Positions 278 through 19,779 are shown, numbered from the stretch's first letter. The stretch: 20,843 nt of DNA from a candidate division FCPU426 bacterium (GCA_030637655.1 DAOWGI010000071.1:1-20843), one strand, 5' to 3'. Made by a program: numbers and translations. Notes: generated by a model not told the origin, from the letters alone.

Positions 278-336
278 GATACAACCATCTTTTTTTAAAA
301 AAAACGAAAGATTTATCACCTTTTCCTGTCTCAAAT

Positions 337-364: not shown

Positions 365-388
365 CCTGCGGTAATTAATAGGCCGGCT

Positions 389-937: not shown

Positions 938-1000
938 TACGAAATATCGTTATCGAGAGGTGTTTTTCGGGACGTTGTTTGGTAATCCGGTGAGGTTTTT

Positions 1001-1025
1001 GTAGAGACGCGATTTATCGCGTCTC
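1001..1025 (+). repeat. REP copy downstream of RAYT, inverted relative to the upstream array
   Basis: GTAGAGACGCGATTTATCGCGTCTC is the exact reverse complement of the array REP. Its flanks (TTTTT before, AGAAA after) also resemble the array flanks. Confidence 0.92.
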
Positions 1026-1081
1026 AGAAACAACCACATTATTTCATTCCATCGCAAAGGGTGGGCCTTGCATTCCTGTGG

Positions 1082-4251: not shown

Positions 4252-4480
4252 GGTAACATGTCAGTGAAGTGCTGTGCTTTGTCAAATAACCCGGGAACAT
4301 ATGGTCTGCTGATTTATTTTTTCCCAAGGGGAAAGCGCGCTTTTACCCAGCCGGATACGAAATTCTAAATAAGTTATCCGTTCGGCAATTTTGAATTTGC
4401 GCATTCAGAGGCAAGTCGCGTCCCTGGGAAAAAATAAATCAGCAGACCATATGTCTTTCTCGCTTCACTGACATGATACC
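4252..4480. mobile_element. Non-autonomous MITE-like element (229 bp), probably with a second element nested at 4303-4448
   Basis: Terminal inverted repeats GGTAACATGTCAGTGAAG (4252-4269) and CTTCACTGACATGATACC (4463-4480) match 17/18. Direct repeat AAGCAA at 4246-4251 and 4481-4486. Internal perfect 30-bp inverted repeat at 4297-4326 / 4425-4454. Confidence 0.82.
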
Positions 4481-7041: not shown

Positions 7042-8382
7042 ATGACGTTCTTGCTGGAAGACAAAAATGGTTTTATCAAAGTGTTATCAAGAATGCTGCG
7101 AAAATATACTTGGTGGATCAATGGATTTATTGTGTTGGGTGCGGCCGCGGCCTTGGTTGCAACTCTGGTTACGCTTACCTCAATGGAGAATAAGCAACTC
7201 GAAGATTTTAAAAGTCTGGCAGAAAGTATTTATGAACAATCACAAGATTCGCTGCTGCAAGAACAACTCAATAATATGTTTGGTTTTATTAAATTTTTAG
7301 ACGGCATGCCTAATATTCACTATGTTGCTTATTGGGTAAATAATAAACGTGCCTTGGAAACTAAAACAGTTGAGCGCGTCAGTGTATACTTTCGAGAAAA
7401 GCCCGAAGCAGAATGGGATGGCTATGTTGAAAATAGTTTGGTTTATTTCAGTAAAAGAATGAAACCTGCCTTGCAAACCTTGGATAAACAGAGGGCCAAA
7501 TTGGGAATTGTTTTTTCTTTGGAAGCATTTATTTCTAAAAAAAAACTAATTATTCAGTCCGGCATAGGGACAACCATTCTGTTGCTGTTGCTGGTCTTGG
7601 TGGTTACTTTGCTCAATAGGACCAATGCTACTTTACAATCCACACAAAACAAATTAACAGAGGCTGAACAAATCAAATCAGGTATGATTTCAACGATTAC
7701 TCATGATGCGAAAAACAATTTAACTGTAATAAACGGGCAGATTGAGAATCTAATGATTAAACAGGAGCGCAAGCTGCCGCTGGACAATCTGGAAACAGTA
7801 CTCAAAGTCATTCGACGCAATGCGGAATCCTTAACAACGTTAATACGCGACTTTAGTGATAATGAACAGTTAAGCAAAGGTAATTTTGCAGTATTTCCTA
7901 AACAATGCGATATCATGGCTATTGTTCATTCGGTAGTGGAATCCATGGCAAGTACTGTTGCGCAAAACCAGCAGGAGATAATATGTGATCCCCCAGGAAG
8001 TCTGGGTACGGTCCGGGCAGACGAAACCAGACTCAAACAAGTGATACAAAATATACTTTCTAATGCTATGAAATTTGCCGCTCCGCAAACAATTATAAAG
8101 GTTAAGGTTGAAAAGAATGAGAAAGAATGTATTTTAAGGATTAGTGATCAGGGAACTGGTATTGAACAAGGAAAATGGGAAATCATATTTAATTCTTTTG
8201 TGCGTCTCCAGCCGGAAAAGGTTGAGGGGACAGGGTTAGGGCTAGCCAATTCTCGCAGGTTTATTCGTCTAATGGATGGTGAATTGGGCGTGGAAAAAAG
8301 TGTTGTAGGGCAAGGCACAACTTTTTATATCAAACTGCAATGTTTGGCACCGGCAAAAGCTGAACGGATCAAGGAGCAATAA
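7042..8382 (+). CDS. Membrane sensor histidine kinase (2 TM, extracytoplasmic loop, HisKA, HATPase_c), 446 aa
   Basis: TM segments FIVLGAAAALVATLVTL and IGTTILLLLLVLVVTLL. H box ITHDAKNNL, N box QNILSNAMKF, G1 DQGTGI, F box IFNSF, G2 GTGLGL. Confidence 0.95.
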   Translation: MTFLLEDKNGFIKVLSRMLRKYTWWINGFIVLGAAAALVATLVTLTSMENKQLEDFKSLAESIYEQSQDSLLQEQLNNMFGFIKFLDGMPNIHYVAYWVNNKRALETKTVERVSVYFREKPEAEWDGYVENSLVYFSKRMKPALQTLDKQRAKLGIVFSLEAFISKKKLIIQSGIGTTILLLLLVLVVTLLNRTNATLQSTQNKLTEAEQIKSGMISTITHDAKNNLTVINGQIENLMIKQERKLPLDNLETVLKVIRRNAESLTTLIRDFSDNEQLSKGNFAVFPKQCDIMAIVHSVVESMASTVAQNQQEIICDPPGSLGTVRADETRLKQVIQNILSNAMKFAAPQTIIKVKVEKNEKECILRISDQGTGIEQGKWEIIFNSFVRLQPEKVEGTGLGLANSRRFIRLMDGELGVEKSVVGQGTTFYIKLQCLAPAKAERIKEQ

Positions 8383-9755
8383 TGGCTAAGATGCTTGTTG
8401 TAGATGATAATAAAGAAATTGTCGCAATGATACAAGATCGTTTCCAACTCGAAGGGTACAAAACAGAAGTGGCATTTGACAAACAAAGTACCTTTGATAA
8501 AATTATAAGCTTTCAACCGGATGTCGTTGTTTTGGATGTGTATTTGGAACAAGCTGAGACTGGAATAGATATTCTTAAGCACCTTAGGGAGCAATGGCCC
8601 AAAGAGGAGTTGCCGGTTATTGTACTCACCGGCCAACCGGATTCTGAATTGTGCTTAAATGCGTTACATGAGGGAGCTGACGATTTTATTTCTAAACCCA
8701 TTGATTTTGAAATATTAATGAATGCTATTAAAAATGTCATAGAAAAAAAACAAGAGGATTTGGAAACTACGGAAGTTTGGCAGATGAAAATAGAAGGGTC
8801 TTCCGATACAATAATTAATTTAACTAAAAAAATATATCAAACATCCCAGGCGGAAGTGGACACTATGATATTGGGAGAAACCGGTACCGGAAAGGATTTG
8901 GCTGCATTTGTATTCCACAAAAACGGCGAAAGAAAAGCGAAACCTTTTATTGTGATTGACTGTACGACGATTCCCGAAGCTCTTTTTGAGTCTGAGGTAT
9001 TTGGTGTTGCCAGAGGAGCGTACACCCATGCTTATGAGTCGCGCCCGGGAAGGGCTGCGAAAGCTCAGGGCGGTATCTTATTTTTTAATGAAATTGGGGA
9101 ATTGTCATTAGATGTGCAGGCAAAACTTCTTGTGTTTTTAGAAACGAAGAAATATACACCCTTAGGAAGTGGTCAAGAGCATAAATTAGATGATGTGATT
9201 CTATCAGCAACCAGTCGTGATTTGCGAAAACGTGTTGAACAGGGAAAGTTTCGGAAGGATTTATATTATCGTCTTATGCAAAATGTAATAAAAATGCCGC
9301 CTCTTAGAGAACATAAAGAGGATCTGCCGCAGTTGGTTAAGTATTTTTTGAAATTATTTAATGAACAGTTTAAAAAAAATATTATTTCTGTTTCTTCCGA
9401 TGTTTTTAAAATTCTGCAAAACCACTCCTGGGAGGGAAATGTGCGGGAATTGAAAATGGTCGTTTTGCGTGGTGTGCACAATTGTCAAGGTCGTATTCTG
9501 GAAAGGGAGCATATTAAAGATGTGTTTGATCCGGAAAAGCGCGAGCGGAGCCAAAACACCAGTGATTCCAAGTATTGTTTTGAAAGCTATGGTACTGCGA
9601 AAGATAAAATATTGTATGGGTTTCATCAAGATTATCTGCAATATCATCTAAAACAACATCAGTGGAATATTCGGAAAACTGCTGAGACCATTGGGATAAC
9701 ACGTGAACATTTATCAAAATTACTAAAAACCCATAATATACAACGCCCGAAATAA
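8382..9755 (+). CDS. NtrC-family response regulator (REC - sigma54-activator AAA+ - Fis-type HTH) with atypical motifs, 457 aa
   Basis: REC VVDDN..LDV..LTG..SKP; Walker A GETGTGKD; ESEVFG..GAYTHA; Walker B ILFFNE; FRKDLYYRL; WEGNVREL; HTH WNIRKTAETIGITREHL. Start overlaps the kinase stop (TAATG). Confidence 0.93.
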   Translation: MAKMLVVDDNKEIVAMIQDRFQLEGYKTEVAFDKQSTFDKIISFQPDVVVLDVYLEQAETGIDILKHLREQWPKEELPVIVLTGQPDSELCLNALHEGADDFISKPIDFEILMNAIKNVIEKKQEDLETTEVWQMKIEGSSDTIINLTKKIYQTSQAEVDTMILGETGTGKDLAAFVFHKNGERKAKPFIVIDCTTIPEALFESEVFGVARGAYTHAYESRPGRAAKAQGGILFFNEIGELSLDVQAKLLVFLETKKYTPLGSGQEHKLDDVILSATSRDLRKRVEQGKFRKDLYYRLMQNVIKMPPLREHKEDLPQLVKYFLKLFNEQFKKNIISVSSDVFKILQNHSWEGNVRELKMVVLRGVHNCQGRILEREHIKDVFDPEKRERSQNTSDSKYCFESYGTAKDKILYGFHQDYLQYHLKQHQWNIRKTAETIGITREHLSKLLKTHNIQRPK

Positions 9756-9788
9756 AATGTGATTAACAACTAAATATTGGCAAGTAAG

Positions 9789-9827
9789 CGGGACAAATGC
9801 TTCACACAGTGTGAACTATTTGTCCCG
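9789..9827. promoter_or_regulatory. 39-bp near-perfect palindrome; candidate upstream activator sequence (UAS) for the enhancer-binding protein, alternatively a terminator
   Basis: CGGGACAAAT-GC-TTCACAC-A-GTGTGAA-CT-ATTTGTCCCG has 17/19 paired positions and a 1-nt centre. It is centred about 115-120 bp upstream of the predicted sigma54 start site. Confidence 0.6.
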
Positions 9828-9858
9828 TTTTAGTATTAAACGAAGTTTATGGCTGTTG

Positions 9859-9871
9859 GAAAGTGCTGATT
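9859..9871 (-). promoter_or_regulatory. Candidate IHF binding site between the UAS and the sigma54 promoter
   Basis: Minus strand AATCAG-CACT-TTC versus consensus WATCAR-N4-TTR (last base mismatched). The position is typical of sigma54 promoters. Confidence 0.4.
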
Positions 9872-9897
9872 TATAAAGAATATGGGTAGATATAGTT

Positions 9898-9914
9898 CCG
9901 GCACGCTACTTGCT
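9898..9914 (+). promoter_or_regulatory. Sigma54 (-24/-12) promoter upstream of the ECF sigma gene
   Basis: CCGGCACGCTACTTGCT: GG (9900-9901), 10 nt, GC (9912-9913). It matches YTGGCACG-N4-TTGCW at all but one position. Confidence 0.8.
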
Positions 9915-9975
9915 TTATAGCCTGGTAGTCAATACCTTGGGGATAAAGGTTAATGAGGCGAAGGGAGTGGCAACC

Positions 9976-10599
9976 ATGTCATTGGAAGAAAGAAGCGCAG
10001 GTAAAACTAAAACCGAATGTACAGATGAGGAACTTATTGAAGCCATTAGATGTGGAGACAGAGAGGCGGCGGATGAAATCATAAAGCGGTACTATATCAA
10101 GGTTGGCAATACTTGTCGTAGATATTTTATATGTCCTGATGACATTAATGATGCCACGCAGGAAGTTTTTACTAAAATATTTGCAGAGAAAAAGGTTGGA
10201 CATTATCGCGGCCAAGCTCAATTTTGGACCTGGCTGTACCGGGTTGTATGTAATACCTGTAAAACTATGCTGCTGAAGCAGCAACAAGCCCGAAAAATAT
10301 ATTCTCTTGATCACCGGATTATGTGGGAAGAAAAAGAGCAGTATGGCAATATGCTGGGAAGTCCTGAGTATAATATACATGCTGAACAAAAGAAGGATCT
10401 GGTGTTAAGAATGATGAAAGCATTGCCGCGAAATTACCGCGCCATTATTTATTTGATTTATTGGAAAGGCTGCAGCTATAAAGAAGCGGCGCATCACATG
10501 AATGTTCCAATTAACATTTTAGGTGTGCAACTTATGCGAGGTAAAAATATGCTAAATAAAATTGGCAGGCCTTTATTCAGCGAGTATACCTATAATTGA
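9976..10599 (+). CDS. ECF-type sigma70 factor, about 207 aa
   Basis: TDEELIEAIRCGDREA, region 2 DATQEVF..FWTWLYRVVCN, region 4 ALPRNYRAIIYL..GCSYKEAA. Start moved from the track's TTG 9910, which lies inside the sigma54 promoter, to ATG 9976 with SD AGGGAG at 9962-9967. Confidence 0.92.
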   Translation: MSLEERSAGKTKTECTDEELIEAIRCGDREAADEIIKRYYIKVGNTCRRYFICPDDINDATQEVFTKIFAEKKVGHYRGQAQFWTWLYRVVCNTCKTMLLKQQQARKIYSLDHRIMWEEKEQYGNMLGSPEYNIHAEQKKDLVLRMMKALPRNYRAIIYLIYWKGCSYKEAAHHMNVPINILGVQLMRGKNMLNKIGRPLFSEYTYN

Positions 10600-10674
10600 T
10601 TAGTTGCTGAAATTCCATAAAAAATATTACAATACTCCGGCGAGATGGTGATCTTTTGAACCTGCGGGAGGTGG

Positions 10675-13608
10675 ATGTCATGTATGGAAAATAAAAAGCA
10701 TGTGCAATATATGATTAATCAATTCGGTCTGGGTTTTATTTGTGTGGTTCTACTTTGTGTTTCCCAGGGGTATGGCGGACAATGGGTCGTGCCTGTTGAT
10801 CTTCCCAATAATGTTCAGGCACATACAGCAACTTTGTTACCCAATGGACTGATTTTGATTGCCGGAGGTCAAGGGCCGACTAAAGTTTATTGTGACGCCT
10901 GGCTATATGATGCTCGTATTGGCAGTTATAGTGCTACCGGGGATATGACGCAACCGCGTTTTTGTCATACTGCGACTTTGCTGCCGGATGGTAATGTGCT
11001 TATTGTTGGTGGGATGGGAAATGCCGGGAAACCATGTCGTGCCATCACGATATACCATACCAGATTAAAAGAATTTAAAACAGTTGCTCAATTAAACCAT
11101 CCTCGCTTAAATCATGCTGCAGTTTTGCTGCCGGATGGAAAAGTGCTGATCATAGGTGATACCAAAGAAATTGAAGTGTATGATCCGAAAACCAAATCCT
11201 GCAAAGTCCTGGGTAAGACACCGGCACTTCTGCATCGCCCTACAGCAACCCTGCTTTCTGATAAAACGATTCTTTTGGTGAATGGAAAAAAACGCCTTGT
11301 CTATCGCTATACCTATCTGACCAATACTTTTAAAAAAATTAAACGTCTTCATTATAAACGTGATCATCATACAGCCACATTTCTGCCTAACGGACAGGTC
11401 TTGATTCTTGGAGGTGCACAAAAAGCAGAAATCTTTTGTCCGCAAAAAAACACATTGATAAAAAGCGCGGCACTTACAAAGATGCGGGTCCATCATACAG
11501 CTACGCTTTTGCCTGACGGAAAAGTCATGGTGGTTGGTGGCGGGCTGGAGCAAAAGGGGACTTCGGTTGAAGTCTATGATTACGTTTTAAAATCATTTCA
11601 AGAAGTGGATAGTATGAAGCATGGCAGAAGCAAGCATAGTGCCACTATGCTGCCGGATGGGAGTGTCTTTGTCTATGGTGGTGGAGAAGGTGTCGGTGCT
11701 GAAGTATTTCAACCCAGTGCGGGGAAATTTTATACCACTAAACTTCTGGAAAAATCGCGGAATACACACACGGCTACTTTACTGCCCAGTGGTCAAGTCC
11801 TGGTTGTAGGAGGATACAATGGAGCATACTTGAAATTTTGTGAGTTATTTGATCCGGTTACCAACCAATTTATAAAAACCGGTAATTTGTCTGTGCCGCG
11901 CCATTGTCACAGTGCGACCTTGTTACCGGATGGAAACATACTCATAGCAGGTGGATATGGTGATGAGAAGTATTGGGCGAGTGCTGAATTGTATCAAATC
12001 ACAACCCGGATTTTTACAAAAATAGGAAACATGACCAGCAAACGTGAAAAACATACAGCCACCATATTACCGAGTGGTGATGTCCTGATGACCGGAGGAT
12101 TTAACAGCAGGCATCTTTCCAGTGCTGAGGTTTATGATGTGAAGGGCAGAACTTTTTATCCTGTTGGATCTATGGCGTATGCCCGGGAAAAACATAGCGC
12201 AACTTTACTTCGAGACGGAAAAATACTCATTACCGGGGGCTATGACGGCAAACAGTATTTAAAAGCAGCTGAGATTTATGCGCCTAAAAAGCGAAAATTC
12301 AAGACCAGTGGGAATATGTTGCAGCCTCGACGGATTCATACTGCCACGCTCTTGCCGTCAGGTAAGGTGTTGATTGTTGGCGGTATTAATAAAAACGGTT
12401 TTTTAAGAAGTGCGGAAATTTATGATCCGGAAATTGGGTTTGCAAAAACCGGTAATTTGAACAAGGCGCGTAACGGACATACGGCAACGTTGTTGCCAAA
12501 TGGCAAGGTTATGATTGCCGGAGGCGGCGTGACAGACGTTGAGTTGTATCATCCGGATACCGGTGAATTTGCGTACACACCTAGCATGACTATTAAGCGG
12601 CGGGAACACTCGGCAACATTATTAACCACAGGTGAAGTGCTTATCATCGGTGGTGAAGATGGTTTCAAATACCTGAATTCTGCTGAACGTGCCCGCTATA
12701 CTGAATATGTATATAAGTATGGAGTTCAATCCTGCCAACCGAAGATTACTACGTGCACGGCCAACGTTTTTCCGGGGAAACCGTGCATAATCAAGGGAGA
12801 AAAATTCTGTGGGCCCTGGGGTGCTGGAGATGGTCAGGGCACTGGAAATTCGGCGGTCAATTATCCTCGGGTCTATCTACGTGCAGTTGGCAGTGGTGGT
12901 ATGAGTGCTTATGGACCATCTGGATATCAGATGGATGTAACGGAATTGTTATTTCCAATGGATTGGACACAAGCGCAAAATTGCTTAGTCTTTTCCATGC
13001 CGGATATCACGCCTGGCTATTGGTTGGTTACGGTTGTTTGCAATGGGATATCATCAGAAGCCAAGCTCTTGTGGAACAAGCGCACTCAGATTATCCTTCC
13101 CGCTCCTGGTCCGGTTACGAATTTGAGCAGTTCTATACTAAAAAGAACAGTACCTACAACTGAAGGGTGGGTTGAAAATTTTGCCGGTCCAACAGGGAAC
13201 CAACCATCCCAATGGCTTGATGAAAGCGATGATTGGGGTGCGAATGCTGAACTGAACTATTCCTGTCAAACCGGCTATGCAGCCATGACCCGTACGGCGG
13301 ATAGTGATTGGGGTCGAGTTCAAACTCAATGGATACGGTGTGATGTCAGTACATATAACTACATCGAAGCAAAGACCATAAGTGTATCACCAGGCGCCAA
13401 ATGGAATATCGCTTTGGTCGAAAGAGGAACCAATAAATGTTATGATTTAGTGAGCGGATCTACTAATTATGGAACCCGGGAAGCGGATTTTCAAAAACAA
13501 ACAGGTTGGCAGGGAACAAAAGAATTCTCAATTCGTATTAATATGGAAGGAACAGAAGGGCAATATATTATCCTCGATTCAGTACGGGTTTTTCGAGTTA
13601 ATCAGTAA
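10675..13608 (+). CDS. Secreted kelch-repeat protein, about 977 aa: 14 repeats (likely two 7-bladed propellers), Ig-like domain, C-terminal ~145-aa beta-sandwich module
   Basis: Signal-like FGLGFICVVLLCVSQGYG. 14 countable H[TS]ATLLP.G.VL..GG repeats, followed by QPKIT..PGYWLVTVVCNG, then GWVENFAG..LDSVRVF. The start may be 10675, 10684 or 10711. Confidence 0.9.
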   Translation: MSCMENKKHVQYMINQFGLGFICVVLLCVSQGYGGQWVVPVDLPNNVQAHTATLLPNGLILIAGGQGPTKVYCDAWLYDARIGSYSATGDMTQPRFCHTATLLPDGNVLIVGGMGNAGKPCRAITIYHTRLKEFKTVAQLNHPRLNHAAVLLPDGKVLIIGDTKEIEVYDPKTKSCKVLGKTPALLHRPTATLLSDKTILLVNGKKRLVYRYTYLTNTFKKIKRLHYKRDHHTATFLPNGQVLILGGAQKAEIFCPQKNTLIKSAALTKMRVHHTATLLPDGKVMVVGGGLEQKGTSVEVYDYVLKSFQEVDSMKHGRSKHSATMLPDGSVFVYGGGEGVGAEVFQPSAGKFYTTKLLEKSRNTHTATLLPSGQVLVVGGYNGAYLKFCELFDPVTNQFIKTGNLSVPRHCHSATLLPDGNILIAGGYGDEKYWASAELYQITTRIFTKIGNMTSKREKHTATILPSGDVLMTGGFNSRHLSSAEVYDVKGRTFYPVGSMAYAREKHSATLLRDGKILITGGYDGKQYLKAAEIYAPKKRKFKTSGNMLQPRRIHTATLLPSGKVLIVGGINKNGFLRSAEIYDPEIGFAKTGNLNKARNGHTATLLPNGKVMIAGGGVTDVELYHPDTGEFAYTPSMTIKRREHSATLLTTGEVLIIGGEDGFKYLNSAERARYTEYVYKYGVQSCQPKITTCTANVFPGKPCIIKGEKFCGPWGAGDGQGTGNSAVNYPRVYLRAVGSGGMSAYGPSGYQMDVTELLFPMDWTQAQNCLVFSMPDITPGYWLVTVVCNGISSEAKLLWNKRTQIILPAPGPVTNLSSSILKRTVPTTEGWVENFAGPTGNQPSQWLDESDDWGANAELNYSCQTGYAAMTRTADSDWGRVQTQWIRCDVSTYNYIEAKTISVSPGAKWNIALVERGTNKCYDLVSGSTNYGTREADFQKQTGWQGTKEFSIRINMEGTEGQYIILDSVRVFRVNQ

Positions 13609-13686
13609 CGGTTCTGATTAGTTCACCCGAAATTGCATCCTATTATTAACTTCATACAAAATTCTGCTAAAAAACATAAAAAAGAA

Positions 13687-13715
13687 TGTAATATTTTCAT
13701 CTCAAATTAGTCTGA
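13687..13715 (+). promoter_or_regulatory. Putative ECF-sigma promoter, copy 1
   Basis: TGTAATATTTTCATCTCAAATTAGTCTGA lies 75 nt upstream of ATG 13791 and is 20/29 identical to 14832-14860, with identities concentrated at both ends. Confidence 0.65.
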
Positions 13716-13790
13716 ATAAGTAGAAGCCGAATACTGGCGCTACCTGGATTCGAGCATAACTGCGAACTATACAGGAAAGGGGATAAAGCA

Positions 13791-14735
13791 ATGAAAAAAG
13801 CACTTATTACAATGATTGCCATGATTGTTATTATTTTTTCCGGAGGTGTCCTGTGGGCAGAACAAACCAATTATGATATTGGGAAAGTAGTTGCTCCGGA
13901 ACTGAAATTAGGTTTAGGTGCCAGACCAGTAGCTCTAGGTGAAGCTTATGTGGCTTTGGCCGATGATCTTAATGCCACTGCCTGGAATCCAGCTGGTTTA
14001 TCCCGCATTACTGGAGCACAAGCCGGGTTTATGCATAATATATTTATTCAAGAAACTTTGTTGGAATATGTAGCTTTTGCTTACCAACTTTTTCCGGGAG
14101 CAGGTTTGGGAGCTAATGTATTTTATTTTAATTATGGCAGTATTAAAAAAGTGGATTTTGATGGCGTAGTCCCTGAAGTTGTTGGTGAGTTTAATCCTTC
14201 GGCATTGATTTTATCCCTGGGTTATGGTCAACAAGTGCTGGAAACATTATCACTTGGCGCGACTGTGAAATATTACAGCCAGAATATTGATACGAAAAAT
14301 TATTCGGCAGTGGTTTTTGATATTGGCGGTCTGCTGCAAACCGGCGTGGAAAAGTTAACCATTGGTTTGGCTGTTCAGAATCTGGGAGCACAAGTAGCGG
14401 GTAAAAATTTACCTATGAATGTCAAAGCTGGTGCGGCCTATGGTATTCCCATTCTGATGAATTCCGGGGATTCGTGGAATGTCTTGCTTGATGTCAACGT
14501 TCCTTTTGGTGATACTAATTATAGCTCAGCCAATATTGGGACAGAGTATTGGTATAATAATATGATAGCCGTGCGAGTTGGTTATAAGATCAAAGATGCC
14601 GGCGAATTAGGCGGAGTAACAGGGCTGACTGCTGGTCTTGGTGCTAAATTGTCTGTGATCAATCTGGATTATGCTATGGTCTCCTATGGAGATCTGGGAT
14701 TAACCCATCAGATGGCGATTGGGGTGAGCTTCTGA
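13791..14735 (+). CDS. PorV/PorQ-family (UPF0164-like) outer-membrane beta-barrel protein, 314 aa
   Basis: Signal peptide, LKLGLGARPVALGEAYVALADDLNATAWNPAGLS signature, amphipathic beta-strands, and the ending DYA..YGDLGLTHQMAIGVSF with a terminal Phe. Confidence 0.88.
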   Translation: MKKALITMIAMIVIIFSGGVLWAEQTNYDIGKVVAPELKLGLGARPVALGEAYVALADDLNATAWNPAGLSRITGAQAGFMHNIFIQETLLEYVAFAYQLFPGAGLGANVFYFNYGSIKKVDFDGVVPEVVGEFNPSALILSLGYGQQVLETLSLGATVKYYSQNIDTKNYSAVVFDIGGLLQTGVEKLTIGLAVQNLGAQVAGKNLPMNVKAGAAYGIPILMNSGDSWNVLLDVNVPFGDTNYSSANIGTEYWYNNMIAVRVGYKIKDAGELGGVTGLTAGLGAKLSVINLDYAMVSYGDLGLTHQMAIGVSF

Positions 14736-14779
14736 AAATAGGAGTCATTGGAGTGTAATTGGATTACTTCAGAGTGTTT

Positions 14780-14812
14780 GTAGGGGTGGGCGCAATGTCC
14801 GGCCCTGTTTTT
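14780..14812 (+). terminator. Imperfect hairpin with T-tract after the PorV-like gene; starts with GTAG, so possibly a decayed REP
   Basis: GTAGGGGTGGGCG-CAA-TGTCCGGCCCT-GTTTTT. The stem has one mismatch and several G-T pairs. Confidence 0.4.
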
Positions 14813-14831
14813 ATAAAAAAATCACGCCTGT

Positions 14832-14860
14832 TGTTATATTTCCGCTTCTTTTTAGTCTAA
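14832..14860 (+). promoter_or_regulatory. Putative ECF-sigma promoter, copy 2
   Basis: TGTTATATTTCCGCTTCTTTTTAGTCTAA lies 71 nt upstream of ATG 14932 and has the same element spacing as copy 1. Confidence 0.65.
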
Positions 14861-14931
14861 CTCCCAGGTTAAGGGAAATTTTTATAAACGCACATATTTT
14901 AAATTGGATTGAATAGCCGGGGAGGTGTGAG

Positions 14932-17900
14932 ATGAAGTTTCGAAATTCAGTAAAAATCATAAGCGTGTTGATCTGTACAGTATTATGGCAGAATAGCGCA
15001 CAAGCTTACCATTTTGGGACAGCTTGGGATGAGTCAGATAGCAATGGCAAACCTTCAGATGCGCTTTATTTGGATGATGAAAAAGATCGGGGTTTAAATG
15101 CCCGCAATCTATATCTGCGTTGGAATCTATTTGAGTCCACTGGGGATAATCAATGGGATACTGGTTATATTAATCAAAAAAAGGCTGAACTGCGGAGGTA
15201 TCGAGATCATGGTTTTGATGTTATTCTGCGAATTAATTTTTTTCCAGTGCCGGAATGGTATTTCCAAACCTATCCAAACGCGCGATTTAAAAATCAATAC
15301 GAGGTAGAATGGAAACCGGAAGTACATGGTCTGGATAAAGATGAAATAGACACTAGTGCCGCCAGTATCTGGCATAATCCAAGCACTAATCCATATCAGA
15401 ATCAATTTGATGAATATCTTTCACAAATCGTGACTGAGTTGGGCACTGATTTTCATGCTGTCTATTTATCTGCCGGACAGTACGGTGAAGTTTCTTATCC
15501 GGTTCATGTGTTGGATGCCAATGATGAAGGCCGCAGCGCTATACACCGCACTGAGGATTTTCAAGGCAACAATAATTGCTATTGGGCGTATGATACCAAT
15601 GCCAGAATTTCGCTGGCAGCTGCGTATGCAGGTGATGCACGGTTGCAGGAAATTCTGGATTTTAAACCAGCTCTGCCGGGAACCAAAGATCCTTTTGCCG
15701 GCGAACGAATAACCAATGGCGGATTTGAAGATAACTATTATCTCACCATGTTTACCGGTCCAGCTCAAGCCATTTCAGGCTGGCGGACATCCACCCTGGT
15801 TGCTATTGATCAACCTGGCAGTTGGCAGCTCACTATTGCAACCATAGGCAGTAATACTGGAGCACAGCATCTGCAGCTTGGGAGTCCTGGCGGAAATCAA
15901 TATTATCTGCACCAAGAAGTAAAAGTCGTAGCTAATCGCAGTTATACCTTGCAAGCTTATGTCAAAGGCTCAGGTGCCAATACTGCTGCGATTCGCTTGC
16001 GGCAAGTGGATGAGACAGGTACTATTCTTAATGAAACCGTGCTTGACTCAATTGCAACAACCTGGACACAAGTAAGCCGGAATATCACCATGCATAGCAA
16101 TGTTGTAAAAGCCTATGTGGATATCTATATATCCTCCGGCAGCGGCACGATTGAGATTGATGCACTGTCCTTAGATGATGGACAAGGAACTGATCATTAT
16201 GCAGCTGAAAAATACCTCGCTTGGTATCATCAAAGTCTGGTGGATTATATTAATTGGCTTATTCCAGTAGTGCGAGGAAAATTTGCGAATTCGAAACTCT
16301 TTTTAATGGAAGGTGGGTATGCTGCTTTAGCTGGTGATATTGAACAAGAAGTTCAGGATGATTTGATGGCGACTAGTAAGAACAACTATTGGGTTAGACG
16401 TGGATTAGTGCCGGACCGCTATTTAGCTGGTATCACCCCTGCCAATCGAGCTAATTTATATTTTTTAAATACAGCCATGCAGCTTGATCAACGCGCTTAT
16501 GGTGAAATAGCTTGGGAAACCAGCGCTCTTTACACTGATTATTCACCGCCTCATTATTTTGCCATGCTGGCGGATAAATACAGTTTAGGCAAATACGGTG
16601 AAAATGCCGGCAAAGATTGGTATGTAGGCATGCAGGCTGCCTTTAAGAACATGGCCGAGTATGGGTATGAAGGACTAGCCTGGTATACTGCCGGTTACTT
16701 ATTTGAACCATGCAATAATTACGCGGATATCAAGCAATACGCAGATAAGATTGCAGAATATAATCTGCTTCCAGCCAAATCAACTACCGGAACTTCGGCG
16801 GCGCCGCTTGTCACAGGCTGGGAAGGAGATACGGAACCTCGAGGGTATGACAATATTTATGAAGCCAAAAGTAATGTGGAAACCTATGCTGAGGAAGAAT
16901 ATGCTTTTCCTCTGTCTACGCGTGCTTATTCAGGGAACAAGGGAGTACCGGCTTTTACAGATAATCAATACTTAGTCGTGGCCGGTCATGCTACCGCCAA
17001 TTCAGCGTATTGCTATTCCTGGCTTTTCAATGACGTACTCATTTCTTATCATAATATTAAAATTGAACCTGGCATGAAACTGCGTTATCGTATTTATCAT
17101 TTGGAAGGAGATAAAATAGGTGATGGGAACCGCTGCGTGGGTATTGATTTTATGCATACTGCTGAAGGGGCTGATCCTAATGTGCCGGAAAATCGTGCTT
17201 ATTTCCGGGATTCAGGATTAGAAGATCAAGCTGGTGTGCCCGTACATCCGGATGCGCGTCATGTCACTGCCAATCCTGCCAATACCTGGAATGATGTGGC
17301 AGTGGATCTGAGCAGTCTGCAGGATCGTATCATTCATCAAGTATTCGTTGTTTTTGATGATAAAAACACGTCATCTCACGGAACTTATTATCGTGCCTAT
17401 ATCGATGATTTGCGTTTTGGTGATCCGTCTGCTGGTTATGAAGAACATTTTACCGGACCTGCTAACGAAATACCTGCCGGCTGGATTGAACGCAGTAGCA
17501 ATGTCACACTCAGGAGAGATGGGATCACGCATGCCCAAACCAAGCTGGTGAATGCAACCTTTGGTGATGTTGAAGGTCCTTTGGTAGCTGATTATGATGA
17601 CACACAATACGATGCTATTGAATTTAAGATAACTAATATGACTGCAGGCGCGTATTTTGATTTTGGTCTGCAGCAGCACCGCGAAGGACGAGAGTATTTG
17701 TATACTGACCGCTTCAGTCATTTGGATGTTCCGGGTACATACCGAGTACGCTTTTCTGCGATTGCCACGACCGCGGATGTTTCCTCCATTTCAACAATCT
17801 TTTGGTTTAACGGACAGACAGGTCATACAGCTGATCTTGACTACATAAAATTAGTTCAACATCCGCCTGTTCCTGTAGCAACGCTTTCTCCGCAGGGGTG

Positions 17901-19779
17901 GGTTGAGGAGTTTGACGGTGCAGTCAACGAAACGCCTGTTGGTTGGCGTGACCGAAAAGCTTGGGGTGAATACAACGCTAGGATTGAGCAGAATGGCAAT
18001 GGTCAGGCTGTGATTACACTTGGCAATTTGAATACCTATGGTGATGTAGTGTCTCCGGTTATTATGAACCTGAATGCAACTGTGTTCAATGCTGTAGAAA
18101 TCAAGCTGGAAGACATTTCCGAAAAAACACATCTGGATATTGGTTTGCAGGAGGAAGGTGGGCAACAACGTTATTTTTCATTATTTAGCGGATTGTCGCA
18201 AGGCGGGGTACAGCGTGCATATTTAGCAGATATTCAGGGTAATCCTGACTATTCCGGATTTTCAATAAAAGTATGGATCAACGGACAGACTGGAAGCTGC
18301 ACTAAGATTGATTATCTCCGTATTTGTGAATCCGGTGCGCAAGGTTTTTCAGACCATTTTACCGGTCCTGCTGATGAAGTGCCGGTTGGCTGGAATGTGA
18401 TCAATAATGCAAGCTTTACTAATGACGGAAGCACTTTAGCGCGCTTAACCTTGCAGAATGCCACTAATTCGGTGGGCACGGTGCAGTCCTCAGTCATTCG
18501 AAATCTGGATTTGGATATATATAATACACTGGAAATCAATGTGCACAGCGTGGGACCGAGTTTTTATGCGGTGTATGTGACGATGATAGAAGAAAATGGT
18601 GGAATGTGGAGCGGCCCCGGCATCTACGGACCAGGGACCAAACATATTAGAATTAATGACCAGCATCATATTGACAGGGGGTATATGGATCCGAGAGCCT
18701 TTTCTGTCCGGGTAGACCTGCTGGCCTATGAAGCAGGGGATTATGTTAATATTGATTCAGTCCGGATTATTCGGGAAGATCAGGTAAGCACACCAACTAT
18801 TACTACATTTACACCGACTTTTACGTTCACTGCAACACCGACTACTACCATGACAGCTACACCCACAATAACACCTACACCACTGACTCCGCAAAAATTA
18901 TTTGCCTGGCCGGAAAGCGGGATCATTATGTATCCTGATAAAGCGCAGAGTGTCTTGGCGGTTTCAAAATACGCCGGAGTGTGCCAACCCAATATTCGAG
19001 TGCATTACGAAGTTGTTCGCGGGTCCGGTATGTTTGGCGATTTTCAAGAGACTTACACAAGTACAGGTCCGGCAGGTGAACGGGCAAGCGTGATTTTTAC
19101 TGCCTCCAGCCAGGTTTGGTATCTTAATATTATTCGTGTAGATAATCAGGGATTAGGGTACGGATTTCAAGGCCGCTGCTATATACCCATCGTTGTGATA
19201 CCAGAACAATGCAGTGGAGCCGGCGCTGATGGATCAACGGAAAGCACTGTTGAAAATGTGAGTTATCCTACTGAGGAAGAGGCGCGAACTGCAGGAGAAG
19301 AAATATTGAATGGGGAAATGCAAGCTGCAGGTGTAATTGATCCCCCACCGGAGACATTTACGTCAACTCCCACAGTAACACCTACGAATACACCCACAGT
19401 TACAGTCACGTGGACACCGACGCCGACTAAAGAAGCGGCAACAGCAACCTGTACATCCACTCCAACCATGACGCCTACTACCATGCCCTGGCTTAAGCCG
19501 GAAAAAGTCCTGGCTTACCCGCAGCCTGCCAAGGGTAGTGTGATCTTTGCCTACAACATTGCCGGTCAGGTGAAAGTGGTCATAGATATTTATTGCGTTA
19601 CCGGTGAACGCATAGCGCATATTGAGGAGCATAAAGACGGAGGAACCGGGCAGACATTAAGAACGCAATGGGATGCTTTGGATATCGCGCCGGGTATTTA
19701 TATTTGCCGGATTGTAATAAGAAATCCGGGTGGTAAGGTGATATTAAACCGGAATAAGAAGGTGGCCTTGATACAATAA
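14932..19779 (+). CDS. Large secreted multidomain putative glycoside hydrolase, 1615 aa: GH14/GH42-like barrel with inserted CBM4/9-like domain, four further beta-sandwich modules, Pro/Thr linkers, Ig-like domain, T9SS type-A-like C-terminal domain
   Basis: Signal peptide ending AQA. LRWNLFES..WD..GFDVIL..PEW; GQYGEVSYP; YWAYD; YLAWY; YGENAG. ITNGGFED..IDALSL insert. Two TPT-rich linkers. Terminal LAYPQP..IDIY..TGE..WD..APGIY..KKVALIQ. SD GGGGAGGT. Confidence 0.85.
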   Translation: MKFRNSVKIISVLICTVLWQNSAQAYHFGTAWDESDSNGKPSDALYLDDEKDRGLNARNLYLRWNLFESTGDNQWDTGYINQKKAELRRYRDHGFDVILRINFFPVPEWYFQTYPNARFKNQYEVEWKPEVHGLDKDEIDTSAASIWHNPSTNPYQNQFDEYLSQIVTELGTDFHAVYLSAGQYGEVSYPVHVLDANDEGRSAIHRTEDFQGNNNCYWAYDTNARISLAAAYAGDARLQEILDFKPALPGTKDPFAGERITNGGFEDNYYLTMFTGPAQAISGWRTSTLVAIDQPGSWQLTIATIGSNTGAQHLQLGSPGGNQYYLHQEVKVVANRSYTLQAYVKGSGANTAAIRLRQVDETGTILNETVLDSIATTWTQVSRNITMHSNVVKAYVDIYISSGSGTIEIDALSLDDGQGTDHYAAEKYLAWYHQSLVDYINWLIPVVRGKFANSKLFLMEGGYAALAGDIEQEVQDDLMATSKNNYWVRRGLVPDRYLAGITPANRANLYFLNTAMQLDQRAYGEIAWETSALYTDYSPPHYFAMLADKYSLGKYGENAGKDWYVGMQAAFKNMAEYGYEGLAWYTAGYLFEPCNNYADIKQYADKIAEYNLLPAKSTTGTSAAPLVTGWEGDTEPRGYDNIYEAKSNVETYAEEEYAFPLSTRAYSGNKGVPAFTDNQYLVVAGHATANSAYCYSWLFNDVLISYHNIKIEPGMKLRYRIYHLEGDKIGDGNRCVGIDFMHTAEGADPNVPENRAYFRDSGLEDQAGVPVHPDARHVTANPANTWNDVAVDLSSLQDRIIHQVFVVFDDKNTSSHGTYYRAYIDDLRFGDPSAGYEEHFTGPANEIPAGWIERSSNVTLRRDGITHAQTKLVNATFGDVEGPLVADYDDTQYDAIEFKITNMTAGAYFDFGLQQHREGREYLYTDRFSHLDVPGTYRVRFSAIATTADVSSISTIFWFNGQTGHTADLDYIKLVQHPPVPVATLSPQGWVEEFDGAVNETPVGWRDRKAWGEYNARIEQNGNGQAVITLGNLNTYGDVVSPVIMNLNATVFNAVEIKLEDISEKTHLDIGLQEEGGQQRYFSLFSGLSQGGVQRAYLADIQGNPDYSGFSIKVWINGQTGSCTKIDYLRICESGAQGFSDHFTGPADEVPVGWNVINNASFTNDGSTLARLTLQNATNSVGTVQSSVIRNLDLDIYNTLEINVHSVGPSFYAVYVTMIEENGGMWSGPGIYGPGTKHIRINDQHHIDRGYMDPRAFSVRVDLLAYEAGDYVNIDSVRIIREDQVSTPTITTFTPTFTFTATPTTTMTATPTITPTPLTPQKLFAWPESGIIMYPDKAQSVLAVSKYAGVCQPNIRVHYEVVRGSGMFGDFQETYTSTGPAGERASVIFTASSQVWYLNIIRVDNQGLGYGFQGRCYIPIVVIPEQCSGAGADGSTESTVENVSYPTEEEARTAGEEILNGEMQAAGVIDPPPETFTSTPTVTPTNTPTVTVTWTPTPTKEAATATCTSTPTMTPTTMPWLKPEKVLAYPQPAKGSVIFAYNIAGQVKVVIDIYCVTGERIAHIEEHKDGGTGQTLRTQWDALDIAPGIYICRIVIRNPGGKVILNRNKKVALIQ

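What the first reader, a model, noticed from the sequence alone, without database searches (positions are those of the whole stretch)
7042..14932. Multi-tier cascade readable from the DNA: histidine kinase -> enhancer-binding protein -> sigma54 -> ECF sigma -> secretion barrel and secreted glycan-active cargo
Seen: coupled HK and RR genes; then palindrome (9789-9827), IHF-like site (9859-9871) and -24/-12 promoter (9898-9914) in textbook order before an ECF sigma gene; no recognisable anti-sigma gene beside it; and a shared bipartite ECF-like motif before the PorV-like and GH genes. Established: bEBPs act from UAS sites ~80-150 bp upstream with IHF looping, and most ECFs are controlled by anti-sigma factors, some transcriptionally. 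Inference: a signal is relayed through two alternative sigma factors to co-induce a T9SS-like shuttle and its cargo. This is my best candidate for an undescribed system in the window.
Basis: partly seen in the sequence, partly recalled or inferred. Interest (0 to 1): 0.8.

Follow-up and report, generated by a model that had tools for sequence, protein, structure and literature searches.

The report
Sigma-54-driven ECF sigma beside glycan-secretion genes
A two-component sensor pair sits directly upstream of a textbook sigma-54 promoter that drives an ECF sigma factor gene, next to genes for secreted carbohydrate-acting proteins. This layout is already known from other secretion systems, and its last step, from the ECF sigma to the secretion genes, is not shown here.

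Summary
The histidine kinase (7042-8382) and an NtrC-type response regulator (8382-9755) overlap by one base. A 22-nt-arm palindrome lies at 9786-9830. An exact GGCACG-N4-TTGC -24/-12 promoter lies at 9900-9913 (0.06 expected per window). The ECF sigma gene (9976-10599) has no anti-sigma neighbour.

Not supported:
- The IHF site has 2 mismatches, which is chance level.
- The shared motif is not ECF-like. TGTWATATTT-N11-TAGTCT does sit before both genes at matching distances (2 of 1000 shuffles), but it has no AAC-type -35, and its 5' half reads as a sigma-70 extended -10.

Its C-terminal CBM-like module recurs three times in the 1615-aa cargo.

The cargo's N-terminus is a glycoside-hydrolase-like TIM barrel with a CBM4/16/22-like insert. 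The barrel protein belongs to the PorV/PorQ family.

The palindrome also looks like the terminator of the kinase-regulator operon.

The kinase-regulator-sigma-54-ECF steps are plausible (about 0.55-0.6). The ECF-to-barrel/cargo step is conjecture.

Known parallels are HrpRS-sigma-54-HrpL-T3SS and PorXY-SigP-T9SS. No orthologous locus could be fetched.

I rate this a new variant of a known kind, of moderate interest.

The parts
7042..8382 (+). Membrane histidine kinase. Two predicted TM segments flank an extracytoplasmic stretch of about 125 aa, followed by HisKA + HATPase_c.
   Evidence: Pfam HATPase_c 84.1 bits, HisKA 27.9 bits. The TM segments were read from the translation. The stop overlaps the RR start in TAATG.
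8382..9755 (+). NtrC-type response regulator / bacterial enhancer-binding protein: REC, sigma-54 AAA+ domain, and a C-terminal Fis-like HTH region. L1 loop reads GAYTHA; Walker B reads FFNEIG.
   Evidence: Sigma54_activat 178 bits, Response_reg 77.2 bits. It aligns over its full length to NtrC, AtoC and NtrX models but below their equivalog cut-offs. D9, D52 and K105 are conserved.
9786..9830 (+). Near-perfect palindrome. Either an RNA hairpin terminating the HK-RR operon, or the enhancer (UAS) for the RR, or both. Its centre lies about 117 nt upstream of the predicted TSS.
   Evidence: 22-nt arms, 86% complementary. + strand RNA folds at -25.5 kcal/mol (z -6.6, 0 of 200 shuffles as good), followed by UUUUAGUAUU. 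The - strand folds at -22.5 kcal/mol. GGGACAAAT occurs only in the two arms.
9900..9913 (+). Sigma-54 promoter core GGCACGctacTTGC (GG at -24, GC at -12). Predicted TSS about 9925.
   Evidence: The only exact match in the window; 0.06 expected. No sigma-70-like hit on the + strand in 9756-9975.
9976..10599 (+). ECF (group 4) sigma factor, sigmaE-like, with no adjacent anti-sigma gene.
   Evidence: Sigma70_r2 and r4_2. TIGR02937 77.5 bits, above its 42.9 cut-off; RpoE model 101 bits, below its 236 cut-off. Best solved relative is E. coli sigmaE 1or7, E 2e-23. Only two homologues at 45% identity were found among 5.8e9 clusters.
10622..10631 (-). Third intergenic copy of TGTAATATTT, on the opposite strand, in the ECF-Kelch gap.
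   Evidence: 4 exact TGTWATATTT sites against 0.28 expected. Two of them defined the pattern.
10675..13608 (+). Secreted Kelch-repeat protein (about 14 blades) with a C-terminal CBM-like module. Probably co-transcribed with the ECF gene.
   Evidence: Kelch_4 235 bits. Signal-peptide-like N-terminus. No structured element in the 75-nt gap (z 0.31). C-terminal residues 805-977 match three cargo modules (E 5e-8, 9e-7, 8e-4; alignment).
13687..13713 (+). Shared promoter-region element, copy 1 (TGTAATATTT-N11-TAGTCT), ending 77 nt before the barrel gene.
13791..14735 (+). PorV/PorQ-family outer-membrane beta-barrel.
   Evidence: NF033709 170.9 bits, above its 90 cut-off. The PorV equivalog (89 against 250) and PorQ equivalog (107 against 220) are below cut-off. 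PDB PorV 6h3i_F E 7e-7.
14787..14812 (+). Terminator-like hairpin plus T-run after the barrel gene.
   Evidence: Listed by the consensus scan. The fold is -18.1 kcal/mol with z -1.56, so support is weak.
14832..14858 (+). Shared promoter-region element, copy 2 (TGTTATATTT-N11-TAGTCT), ending 73 nt before the cargo gene.
14932..19779 (+). 1615-aa secreted multidomain protein: signal peptide, GH-like (beta/alpha)8 barrel with a CBM4/16/22-like insert, three CBM-like modules, Pro/Thr linkers, and a T9SS-type C-terminal domain.
   Evidence: CBM_4_9 22 bits and Por_Secre_tail 20.6 bits, both below cut-off. Family profile against PDB: GH42 8ibr E 1.4e-7, GH5 E 5e-6. AF2 model pLDDT 87.1. Foldseek: GH14 beta-amylase 3voc E 1.9e-13, TMt 0.67; CBMs TMt 0.62-0.77. 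Module model pLDDT 84.9, closest to CBM11/22/29/30 and GH16 sandwiches at TM 0.4-0.56.

Best explanation
This is a glycan-related gene cluster, probably from a lineage near candidate division FCPU426. Its upstream half is a transcriptional relay.

Proposed mechanism:
1. The membrane kinase senses an extracytoplasmic signal and phosphorylates the NtrC-type regulator. This is inferred from the domains.
2. The regulator activates the sigma-54 promoter at 9900-9913. The promoter is shown in the sequence; the link to this regulator is inferred from adjacency.
3. The resulting transcript carries the ECF sigma gene and, most likely, the secreted Kelch-repeat protein gene.
4. The hairpin at 9786-9830 ends the kinase-regulator transcript, so the ECF gene is insulated from read-through. 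It may also serve as the regulator's binding site.
5. With no anti-sigma partner next to it, the ECF sigma would be controlled mainly by how much of it is made, as with HrpL.

The neighbouring PorV/PorQ-family barrel gene and the GH-like, CTD-bearing cargo gene have their own promoters, which share one element. The two are functionally tied to the Kelch protein through a shared CBM-like module.

Whether the ECF sigma drives those two promoters is open. The shared element looks more like a sigma-70 extended -10 plus a common downstream box than like an ECF promoter.
For: - HK-RR coupling and domains.
- The exact -24/-12 element is unique in the window (0.06 expected), correctly oriented, 62 nt before ATG 9976, with no rival sigma-70-like site in the gap.
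- The RR keeps its phospho-acceptor residues, and keeps Y and T in the L1 loop. HrpS is always GAYTGA and active, and T is the key contact (PMC3105312 passages). GSFTGA, GAYTGA and GAFSGA variants are accepted as active (PMC6615313 passages).
- Walker-B Asn also occurs in 5 homologues that have a canonical GAFTGA.
- The hairpin is strong, 3 kcal/mol better on the + strand, and followed by a U-run.
- No anti-sigma gene is beside the ECF gene. By contrast, 2 of 4 distant ECF loci examined carry a zf-HC2 gene directly downstream.
- No structure in the ECF-Kelch gap.
- The Kelch C-terminal module equals the cargo modules. One cargo homologue, P0154, fuses the GH-like domain with Kelch repeats.
- The shared element lies at matched positions before the barrel and cargo genes.
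Against: - rpoN cannot be seen in the window.
- The RR's L1 loop (GAYTHA) and Walker B (N for D) are non-canonical. In its 13 closest relatives, none has GAFTGA and several lack the Thr. The clade may therefore have drifted away from sigma-54.
- Pfam gave no HTH_8 hit for the RR at E <= 0.001.
- No second copy of the palindrome half-site exists, and the IHF site fails.
- No orthologous locus was available. The genome scan returned only ECFs at 22-44% identity (best segment; the four best E-values at 22-29%), and none of the 7 loci has RR, Kelch, PorV or cargo homologues.
- Contig-length fingerprints of ECF, RR and cargo homologues do not coincide.
- The shared motif reaches only 12 of 500 shuffles without the positional constraint. 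It contains no AAC-type -35 and no sigmaE-type pattern.
Confidence: 0.55

Rival explanations
1. The full four-tier cascade. The ECF sigma directly recognises TGTWATA (-35) and TAGTCT (-10) before the barrel and cargo genes, and co-induces a T9SS-type shuttle and its cargo.
For: - The two-copy element lies at matched distances from the start codons: 2 of 1000 shuffles, and the best of 45 real pairs.
- GTC/TCTGA-like -10 motifs are typical of sigmaE-like ECFs (recalled), and the ECF's best solved relative is sigmaE.
- A terminator-like site before copy 2 shows that the cargo gene needs its own promoter.
- The genes are adjacent, and the module shared between the ECF-operon Kelch protein and the cargo links them.
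- A TCS-ECF-T9SS precedent exists (PMC4800418 abstract).
Against: - No AAC in the -35 position, and no GAAC-N17-20-TCWRA site before either gene.
- The 5' half is TGnTATATT / TGnAATATT, which is an extended -10.
- The same 10-mer also occurs on the opposite strand at 10622 and 14268. That does not fit a directional -35 element.
- Significance is marginal without the positional constraint.
- No conservation data.
Confidence: 0.22
2. The barrel and cargo promoters are housekeeping sigma-70 extended -10 promoters, possibly sharing a repressor or activator box (TTAGTCT). The ECF regulon is its own operon (Kelch) or lies elsewhere.
For: - TGT-TATATT (5 of 6 plus TG) and TGT-AATATT (4 of 6 plus TG) are read directly.
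- Canonical sigma-70-type promoters are visible elsewhere in the window: TTGTCA-N17-TACAAT before the helicase gene, read.
- A-tracts lie upstream of both elements.
Against: - Neither site was listed by the sigma-70 scan, because both lack a -35 hexamer.
- The conserved TTAGTCT at fixed spacing is not explained by a -10 element alone.
Confidence: 0.4
3. The palindrome is only the terminator of the kinase-regulator operon. The sigma-54 promoter is served by a different enhancer-binding protein, or the adjacent regulator acts on a distant target.
For: - Continuous complementarity across 20 pairs, including spacer positions, with G-U pairs that help only the + strand RNA, followed by a U-run.
- Enhancer sites are usually 15-19-bp dyads (recalled).
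- The regulator's L1 loop is degenerate.
Against: - bEBP genes commonly lie next to their targets (established knowledge).
- The palindrome centre at -117 is within the usual enhancer distance.
- It contains a nested 7-1-7 dyad, TTCACAC-A-GTGTGAA, of transcription-factor size.
Confidence: 0.3
4. The -24/-12 match is a chance occurrence, and the ECF gene is transcribed by read-through or from an unrecognised promoter.
For: 6 of 100 shuffled windows contain one exact match.
Against: The match falls in the one 220-nt gap where it is expected, on the right strand and at the right distance from the start codon, directly after a bEBP gene. A strong hairpin blocks read-through.
Confidence: 0.07

Closest known systems
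HrpR/HrpS - sigma-54 - HrpL (ECF32) - type III secretion regulon of Pseudomonas syringae (in Erwinia, fed by the HrpX/HrpY two-component system; the Erwinia detail is recalled)
   Same: Enhancer-binding protein(s) activate a sigma-54 promoter in front of an ECF sigma gene that has no anti-sigma partner and is controlled transcriptionally. That ECF then switches on a secretion apparatus and its substrates (PMC8999054 passages). HrpS also carries Tyr in the GAFTGA loop (PMC3105312 passages).
   Different: Here the activator is a classical REC-containing NtrC-type regulator paired with its own kinase. The ECF is sigmaE-like rather than shown to be ECF32. The neighbouring genes are a PorV/PorQ barrel and glycan-active proteins, not a T3SS. 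No hrp-box-like ECF promoter was found.
PorY-PorX-SigP cascade controlling type IX secretion genes in Porphyromonas gingivalis
   Same: Two-component system, then ECF sigma, then T9SS component genes including porV (PMC4800418 abstract; related titles and abstracts in the listing).
   Different: PorX is not a bEBP. It binds SigP protein directly, and porX, porY and sigP are unlinked. Here the link would be transcriptional through sigma-54, the genes are contiguous, and only one T9SS-related component is visible.
NtrB/NtrC-type two-component systems with sigma-54 target operons next to the regulator gene
   Same: Domain architecture of both proteins. An exact -24/-12 core. A dyad about 117 nt upstream of the predicted start.
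   Different: All equivalog models score below cut-off (NtrC 285.6 against 558.6). The L1 loop is GAYTHA and Walker B has Asn. The target is a sigma factor gene.
sigmaE (RpoE)/RseA-type ECF-anti-sigma pairs
   Same: The best solved relative is E. coli sigmaE. Two of the four distant relatives examined in genomes carry a zf-HC2 anti-sigma gene next door.
   Different: No anti-sigma gene is adjacent here, and a sigma-54 promoter stands where an autoregulated ECF promoter would be.

Membership tests
Bacterial enhancer-binding protein (sigma-54 activator, NtrC class) | Sigma-54 interaction AAA+ domain (PF00158) | tested here: met
   178 bits against a cut-off of 20.2.
Bacterial enhancer-binding protein (sigma-54 activator, NtrC class) | GAFTGA sigma-54 contact loop | tested here: inconclusive
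   The loop reads GAYTHA. Y and T are kept and G5 is His. Among the 120 best homologues: 53 GAFTGA, 20 GAYTGA, 1 GAYTHA.
Bacterial enhancer-binding protein (sigma-54 activator, NtrC class) | Walker A and Walker B (hhhhDE) ATPase motifs | tested here: inconclusive
   Walker A (GETGTGK) is present. Walker B reads FFNEIG, with Asn for Asp. 15 of 120 homologues share Asn, and 5 of those have a canonical GAFTGA.
Bacterial enhancer-binding protein (sigma-54 activator, NtrC class) | Phosphorylatable receiver domain with a cognate kinase | tested here: met
   Response_reg 77.2 bits. D9, D52 and K105 are conserved. The kinase gene overlaps by one base.
Bacterial enhancer-binding protein (sigma-54 activator, NtrC class) | rpoN present in the same genome | not testable with these tools
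   Only the 20.8-kb window is available. The collections that would hold the source contig are closed.
Sigma-54-dependent promoter | GG at -24 and GC at -12 in TGGCAC-N5-TTGC register | tested here: met
   cGGCACGctacTTGCt at 9899-9914. The exact 10-base core is unique; 0.06 expected.
Sigma-54-dependent promoter | Enhancer (UAS) 80-150 nt upstream, bound by the activator | tested here: inconclusive
   A dyad is centred at -117, but it also has all the features of an intrinsic terminator. Binding is not testable.
Sigma-54-dependent promoter | IHF site between the enhancer and the promoter (optional feature) | tested here: not met
   No site with <=1 mismatch lies in 9831-9899. The claimed site has 2 mismatches. 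Window-wide matches are at chance level.
ECF (group 4) sigma factor | Only regions 2 and 4; matches the ECF superfamily model | tested here: met
   PF04542 + PF08281. TIGR02937 77.5 against 42.9.
ECF32 / HrpL-like, transcriptionally controlled ECFs | Assignment to the ECF32 group | not tested
   No ECF-group models were available. The best solved relative is sigmaE.
ECF32 / HrpL-like, transcriptionally controlled ECFs | No cognate anti-sigma; sigma-54 promoter upstream | tested here: met
   No anti-sigma domain in either neighbour. The promoter is at 9900-9913. An anti-sigma gene elsewhere in the genome cannot be excluded.
PorV/PorQ family (T9SS outer-membrane barrel) | Family model NF033709 above cut-off | tested here: met
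   170.9 against 90.
PorV/PorQ family (T9SS outer-membrane barrel) | PorV or PorQ equivalog score | tested here: not met
   PorV 89.2 against 250; PorQ 106.6 against 220.
Type IX secretion system | Core machinery (SprA/Sov, PorK/L/M/N, PorU) in the genome | not testable with these tools
   None of these is in the window. The rest of the genome is not available.
T9SS cargo (type A CTD) | C-terminal sorting domain above the curated cut-off | tested here: inconclusive
   PF18962 20.6 against 27; TIGR04183 16.2 against 23. The 58-61%-identical homologue P0152 gives CHU_C 26.7 and Por_Secre_tail 23.3, also just below cut-off.
Glycoside hydrolase (clan GH-A / GH14-like TIM barrel) | Sequence membership in a named GH family | tested here: not met
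   No GH Pfam hit for the window protein. Homologues give only partial Glyco_hydro_42 hits, with most of the hits at or below that model's 21-bit cut-off.
Glycoside hydrolase (clan GH-A / GH14-like TIM barrel) | (beta/alpha)8 fold resembling solved GHs, with conserved acidic residues | tested here: inconclusive
   Family profile against GH42, E 1.4e-7. Model against GH14 beta-amylase, E 1.9e-13, TMt 0.67. Two near-invariant Glu residues (E161 and E532 of the trimmed query). Their catalytic roles are not established.

The most novel reading that the evidence does not exclude
An NtrC-type regulator with a naturally degenerate sigma-54 contact loop (GAYTHA) and a Walker-B Asn still drives a perfect -24/-12 promoter. 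That promoter makes an ECF sigma with no anti-sigma partner. The ECF in turn switches on a PorV-type shuttle, a Kelch lectin-like protein and a new GH-like enzyme that share a new CBM-like module. If so, this is a sigma-54 to ECF to T9SS-cargo relay in a barely studied phylum near FCPU426. It would be the first such two-sigma relay linked to type IX-style secretion outside Bacteroidota.
Probability: 0.2. Interest if true: 0.55.

Novelty: new variant of a known kind. Interest (0 to 1): 0.35.

Why it matters
If the relay is real, the 'enhancer-binding protein to sigma-54 to ECF sigma to secretion genes' design, known from plant-pathogen type III secretion, has also been adopted in an uncultivated lineage to control secreted polysaccharide-acting proteins.

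It would also provide natural test cases for how much the GAFTGA loop and the Walker B aspartate can vary in working sigma-54 activators.

Independently of the regulation, the cluster defines two things that could guide enzyme discovery:
- an unassigned GH-like family, with 176 relatives at E <= 1e-3 among 1.84e9 representatives;
- an unnamed CBM-like module shared by two neighbouring secreted proteins.

As it stands, the regulatory logic is a reasonable annotation-level hypothesis and not a new kind of system.

Tried and rejected
- **Contig-length fingerprints as a proxy for linkage.** No coincidences between the ECF, RR and cargo homologue lists. This is only a weak negative.
- **Complex prediction**, for the barrel with the cargo CTD, was unavailable (nothing was folded).
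- **Rfam** at E <= 1 gave only a spurious miRNA hit at 4297-4454.
- **tRNAs:** none.
- **IHF consensus** rejected.
- **SigmaE-type promoter pattern** rejected.
- **Other copies of the palindrome half-site:** none.
- **Direct PDB sequence search with the cargo:** nothing meaningful.
- **Kelch protein as an anti-sigma factor:** rejected. Only about 17 residues precede the hydrophobic segment, there is no zf-HC2, and the protein looks secreted.
- **TTG 9910 as the ECF start:** rejected. It lies inside the promoter, and the homologues align from the ATG 9976 region.
- **Literature.** The search 'Goldbacteria' + 'type IX secretion' found 1 paper, and its only T9SS mention is a reference title. The search 'sigma-54' + 'ECF sigma factor' + 'enhancer-binding protein' + 'two-component' found 5 papers. 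From their titles and abstracts, and from passages of two of them, none describes a T9SS-linked case.

Full report
**What is in the window**

All long ORFs lie on the + strand. Pfam and NCBIfam scans give the following genes, in order:
- a REP-associated tyrosine-transposase-like ORF (389-937);
- a DEAH helicase with an MrfA Zn-binding domain (1219-4155);
- a DUF4388 protein with an MshE-type c-di-GMP-binding motif (4569-6182);
- two small unknown ORFs;
- a histidine kinase (7042-8382);
- an NtrC-type response regulator (8382-9755);
- an ECF sigma factor (9910 or 9976 to 10599);
- a 977-aa Kelch-repeat protein (10675-13608);
- a PorV/PorQ-family barrel (13791-14735);
- a 1615-aa multidomain protein (14932-19779);
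- an open-ended repeat protein (from 20154).

It is the ECF gene's immediate neighbour.

**Checking the observation**

*Kinase and regulator.* The two genes overlap in TAATG, with an AAGGAG ribosome-binding site upstream.

*Palindrome.* It is real and slightly longer than stated: arms 9786-9807 and 9809-9830, 22 nt, 86% complementary.

*Sigma-54 promoter.* The core GGCACGctacTTGC at 9900-9913 is the only exact GGCACG-N4-TTGC in the window, on either strand. Shuffles give 0.06 per window, and 6 of 100 shuffles hold one. With one mismatch allowed there are 3 matches against 1.3 expected, so only the exact site is meaningful. It lies 144 nt after the regulator's stop codon and 62 nt before ATG 9976. 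That ATG has an AAGGGAG Shine-Dalgarno sequence and is where the two closest homologues begin to align. TTG 9910 lies inside the promoter and is not the start. The consensus scan lists no sigma-70-like site on the + strand in 9756-9975.

*IHF site.* The claimed site at 9859-9871 has two mismatches to WATCAANNNNTTR. Sites with at most one mismatch occur at chance frequency (39 against 35.7 expected), and none lies between the palindrome and the promoter.

*Shared motif.* It exists as TGTWATATTT-N11-TAGTCT at 13687-13713 and 14832-14858, with 19 of 27 positions identical.
- Scored as the best ungapped 27-mer between the two intergenic regions, 12 of 500 dinucleotide shuffles do as well. Unrelated intergenic pairs in this window reach 19-22.
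- If the two sites must lie at the same distance (+-5 nt) from their start codons, only 2 of 1000 shuffles reach 19, and the pair is the best of 45 real pairs. This criterion was chosen after seeing the data.
- The element is therefore probably real.
- Nothing marks it as an ECF promoter. It has no AAC-type -35. A sigmaE-type pattern (GAAC-N17-20-TCWRA) matches once in the window, on the minus strand at 20148, against 2.5 expected.
- The 5' half reads TGn-TATATT / TGn-AATATT, which is a sigma-70 extended -10.
- The 10-mer TGTWATATTT occurs four times against 0.28 expected (two of the four defined the pattern). The other two are on the opposite strand, at 10622-10631 in the ECF-Kelch gap and at 14268-14277 inside the barrel gene. 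That is hard to reconcile with a directional -35 element.

**The regulator**

It has a receiver domain with conserved D9, D52 and K105, a sigma-54 AAA+ domain (178 bits), an AAA lid, and a C-terminal region that aligns to the end of the NtrC, AtoC and NtrX models. It scores below every equivalog cut-off.

Two motifs deviate from the norm:
- The sigma-54 contact loop reads GAYTHA.
- Walker B reads FFNEIG, with Asn for Asp.

Among the 120 best homologues, self included:
- The loop is GAFTGA in 53, GAYTGA in 20 and GSFTGA in 16.
- Walker B has Asp in 100, Asn in 15 and Ser in 4, with 1 unscored.
- Five of the Asn proteins have a canonical GAFTGA.

In the 13 closest sequences (P0029-P0041, 35-43% identity), none has GAFTGA, one has GAYTGA, ten have Asn, and several lack the Thr.

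From the literature (passages read):
- HrpS is always GAYTGA and active, and the Thr is the key, >97% conserved contact (PMC3105312).
- GSFTGA, GAYTGA and GAFSGA variants are treated as functional (PMC6615313).

The window's protein keeps both Tyr and Thr, so activity is plausible but not assured.

The named sequences among the closest homologues are labelled 'candidate division FCPU426'. FCPU426 is equated with Goldbacteria, a phylum with a characterised cellulose degrader (PMC7031533 passages). The taxonomic placement is only a lead from 41-43% identity.

**Palindrome: enhancer or terminator**

As + strand RNA it forms a 14+6-pair hairpin at -25.5 kcal/mol (z -6.6; 0 of 200 shuffles as stable), followed by UUUUAGUAUU. 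The minus-strand RNA is 3 kcal/mol weaker because two G-U pairs are lost.

Complementarity runs through the spacer positions as well. That is what selection on an RNA stem produces, and it is not required for a protein-binding dyad. The hairpin starts 31 nt after the regulator's stop codon.

On the other side, its centre is about 117 nt upstream of the predicted start at about 9925, within the usual enhancer range. It also contains a nested 7-1-7 dyad, TTCACAC-A-GTGTGAA. The half-site GGGACAAAT occurs nowhere else in the window.

I consider 'terminator, possibly doubling as enhancer' the best reading. A terminator there is in fact needed for the ECF gene to depend on the sigma-54 promoter.

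**The ECF sigma and its neighbour**

The ECF passes the superfamily model (77.5 against 42.9). It is closest to sigmaE models (101 bits, below cut-off) and to E. coli sigmaE among solved structures (E 2e-23).

It is rare. Only two homologues at 45% identity, both metagenomic, were found among 5.8e9 clusters; the rest are <=34% over most of the length.

No anti-sigma gene is adjacent. In the four distant ECF loci I examined (of the 7 fetched), the gene directly downstream has a zf-HC2 anti-sigma domain in 2 of 4.

The 75-nt ECF-Kelch gap shows no structure (z 0.31), so co-transcription is likely.

The Kelch protein has a signal-peptide-like N-terminus with only about 17 residues before the hydrophobic segment. 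That rules out an anti-sigma role.

**The secreted proteins**

*Shared module.* The Kelch protein's C-terminal residues 805-977 are homologous to three tandem modules of the cargo: 833-922, 973-1131 and 1137-1284 (blastp E 8e-4, 5e-8 and 9e-7). The four-way alignment has 14 invariant columns. No Pfam family matches. An AF2 model (pLDDT 84.9) is a beta-sandwich closest to CBM11/22/29/30 and GH16 folds, at modest TM scores of 0.4-0.56.

*Cargo N-terminus (residues 26-640).* It has 176 relatives at E <= 1e-3 among 1.84e9 representatives.
- Of 26 relatives scanned, 15 give partial Glyco_hydro_42 hits at E <= 0.01, most of them at or below that model's 21-bit cut-off. Several carry CBM60, CBM96, dockerin or fn3 domains. 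P0154 fuses this domain with Kelch repeats.
- A profile of 26 sequences hits GH42 beta-galactosidases (E 1.4e-7) and GH5 endoglycoceramidase (E 5e-6) over about 80 residues.
- The AF2 model (pLDDT 87.1, pTM 0.88) is most similar to GH14 beta-amylases (3voc, E 1.9e-13, TMt 0.67). Its inserted domain matches CBM4/16/22 (TMt 0.62-0.77).

'Glycan-active' is therefore supported at fold level, without assignment to a named GH family.

*C-terminal domain.* It scores just below the curated cut-offs (20.6 against 27; 16.2 against 23).

*Barrel.* It passes the PorV/PorQ family model but not the PorV or PorQ equivalogs, and it matches solved PorV.

No other T9SS component is in the window.

A terminator-like site follows the barrel gene, so the cargo gene needs its own promoter, and copy 2 of the shared element is in the right place.

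**Comparative evidence, which is mostly missing**

- None of the 7 contains the -24/-12 core or homologues of the RR, Kelch, barrel or cargo proteins.
- Contig-length fingerprints do not coincide. ECF homologues: 58761 and 11043. RR homologues: 8495, 19246, 13486 and others. Cargo homologues: 17138, 16944, 33509, 58144, 9807, 26877 and 10966. This is a weak negative for conserved linkage.

**Comparison with known systems**

- The bEBP to sigma-54 to anti-sigma-less ECF to secretion apparatus and substrates design is the HrpRS/HrpL (ECF32) paradigm (PMC8999054 passages).
- A two-component system acting through an ECF sigma on T9SS genes is the PorXY-SigP cascade (PMC4800418 abstract).
- The present locus would combine the transcriptional logic of the first with the secretion context of the second, using a classical kinase/NtrC pair.
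- My literature searches found no T9SS-linked sigma-54-to-ECF case. The library does not cover subscription journals.

**Verdict**

My confidence is about 0.55-0.6 for the steps down to the ECF sigma and about 0.2 for the ECF acting on the barrel and cargo promoters.

I rate this a new variant of a known regulatory design, in a poorly sampled lineage, of moderate interest.

The more original by-products are three:
- the regulator clade with a degenerate GAFTGA loop and a Walker-B Asn;
- the unassigned GH-like family;
- the unnamed CBM-like module shared by two neighbouring secreted proteins.

Noticed in passing
window 1-1033: A tandem array of 63-nt units (1-284), each holding the palindrome GAGACGCGATAAATCGCGTCTC. 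Further copies lie at 336-369, 662-695 (inside the ORF) and 1000-1033. They flank an ORF (389-937) that matches the REP-associated tyrosine transposase model only partially (73.4 bits against a cut-off of 80). This looks like a REP/RAYT-type element.
   Followed up: partly
window 4297-4454: A 33-nt inverted repeat (97% complementary, 92 nt apart) nested inside a second one (4252-4269 / 4463-4480). It lies upstream of the DUF4388 gene whose product carries an MshE-type c-di-GMP-binding motif. Rfam gave only a spurious miRNA hit here.
   Followed up: no
window 8382-9755 and homologues P0030-P0041: The regulator's closest clade has a degenerate sigma-54 contact loop (GAYTHA, KAATNI, GAYSGA, NAFNNA, GSFTSA, GSFTHA, GAFSEA and others). 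Asn replaces the Walker B Asp in 10 of 13 members. Walker-B Asn also occurs in 5 more distant homologues that have a canonical GAFTGA.
   Followed up: partly
window 13087-13605, 17407-18801: An unnamed module of about 155 aa (F-x-G-P...P-x-G-W...) occurs once at the Kelch protein's C-terminus and three times in the cargo. The predicted fold is a beta-sandwich resembling CBM11/22/29/30. No Pfam match.
   Followed up: yes
protein P0154 (homologue of window 14932-19779): A 1724-aa relative, 41-42% identical in the GH-like domain, carries Kelch repeats at 1523-1607. It thus fuses the two functions that are separate neighbouring genes in the window.
   Followed up: partly
window 20154-20843: An open-ended ORF with no family match. 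It contains at least four 36-nt tandem repeats (20655-20842) that encode a 12-aa Pro/Thr/Glu-rich unit.
   Followed up: no
window 1219-4155: A DEAH-box helicase with an MrfA Zn-binding domain. It matches the 'helicase/secretion neighbourhood' model TIGR03817 at 714.9 bits, below that model's 874.1 cut-off.
   Followed up: no
window 10622-10631 and 14268-14277 (minus strand): Two further exact copies of TGTAATATTT on the opposite strand, one in the ECF-Kelch gap. If they are extended -10 elements, they would drive antisense transcripts into the ECF gene and the barrel gene.
   Followed up: no
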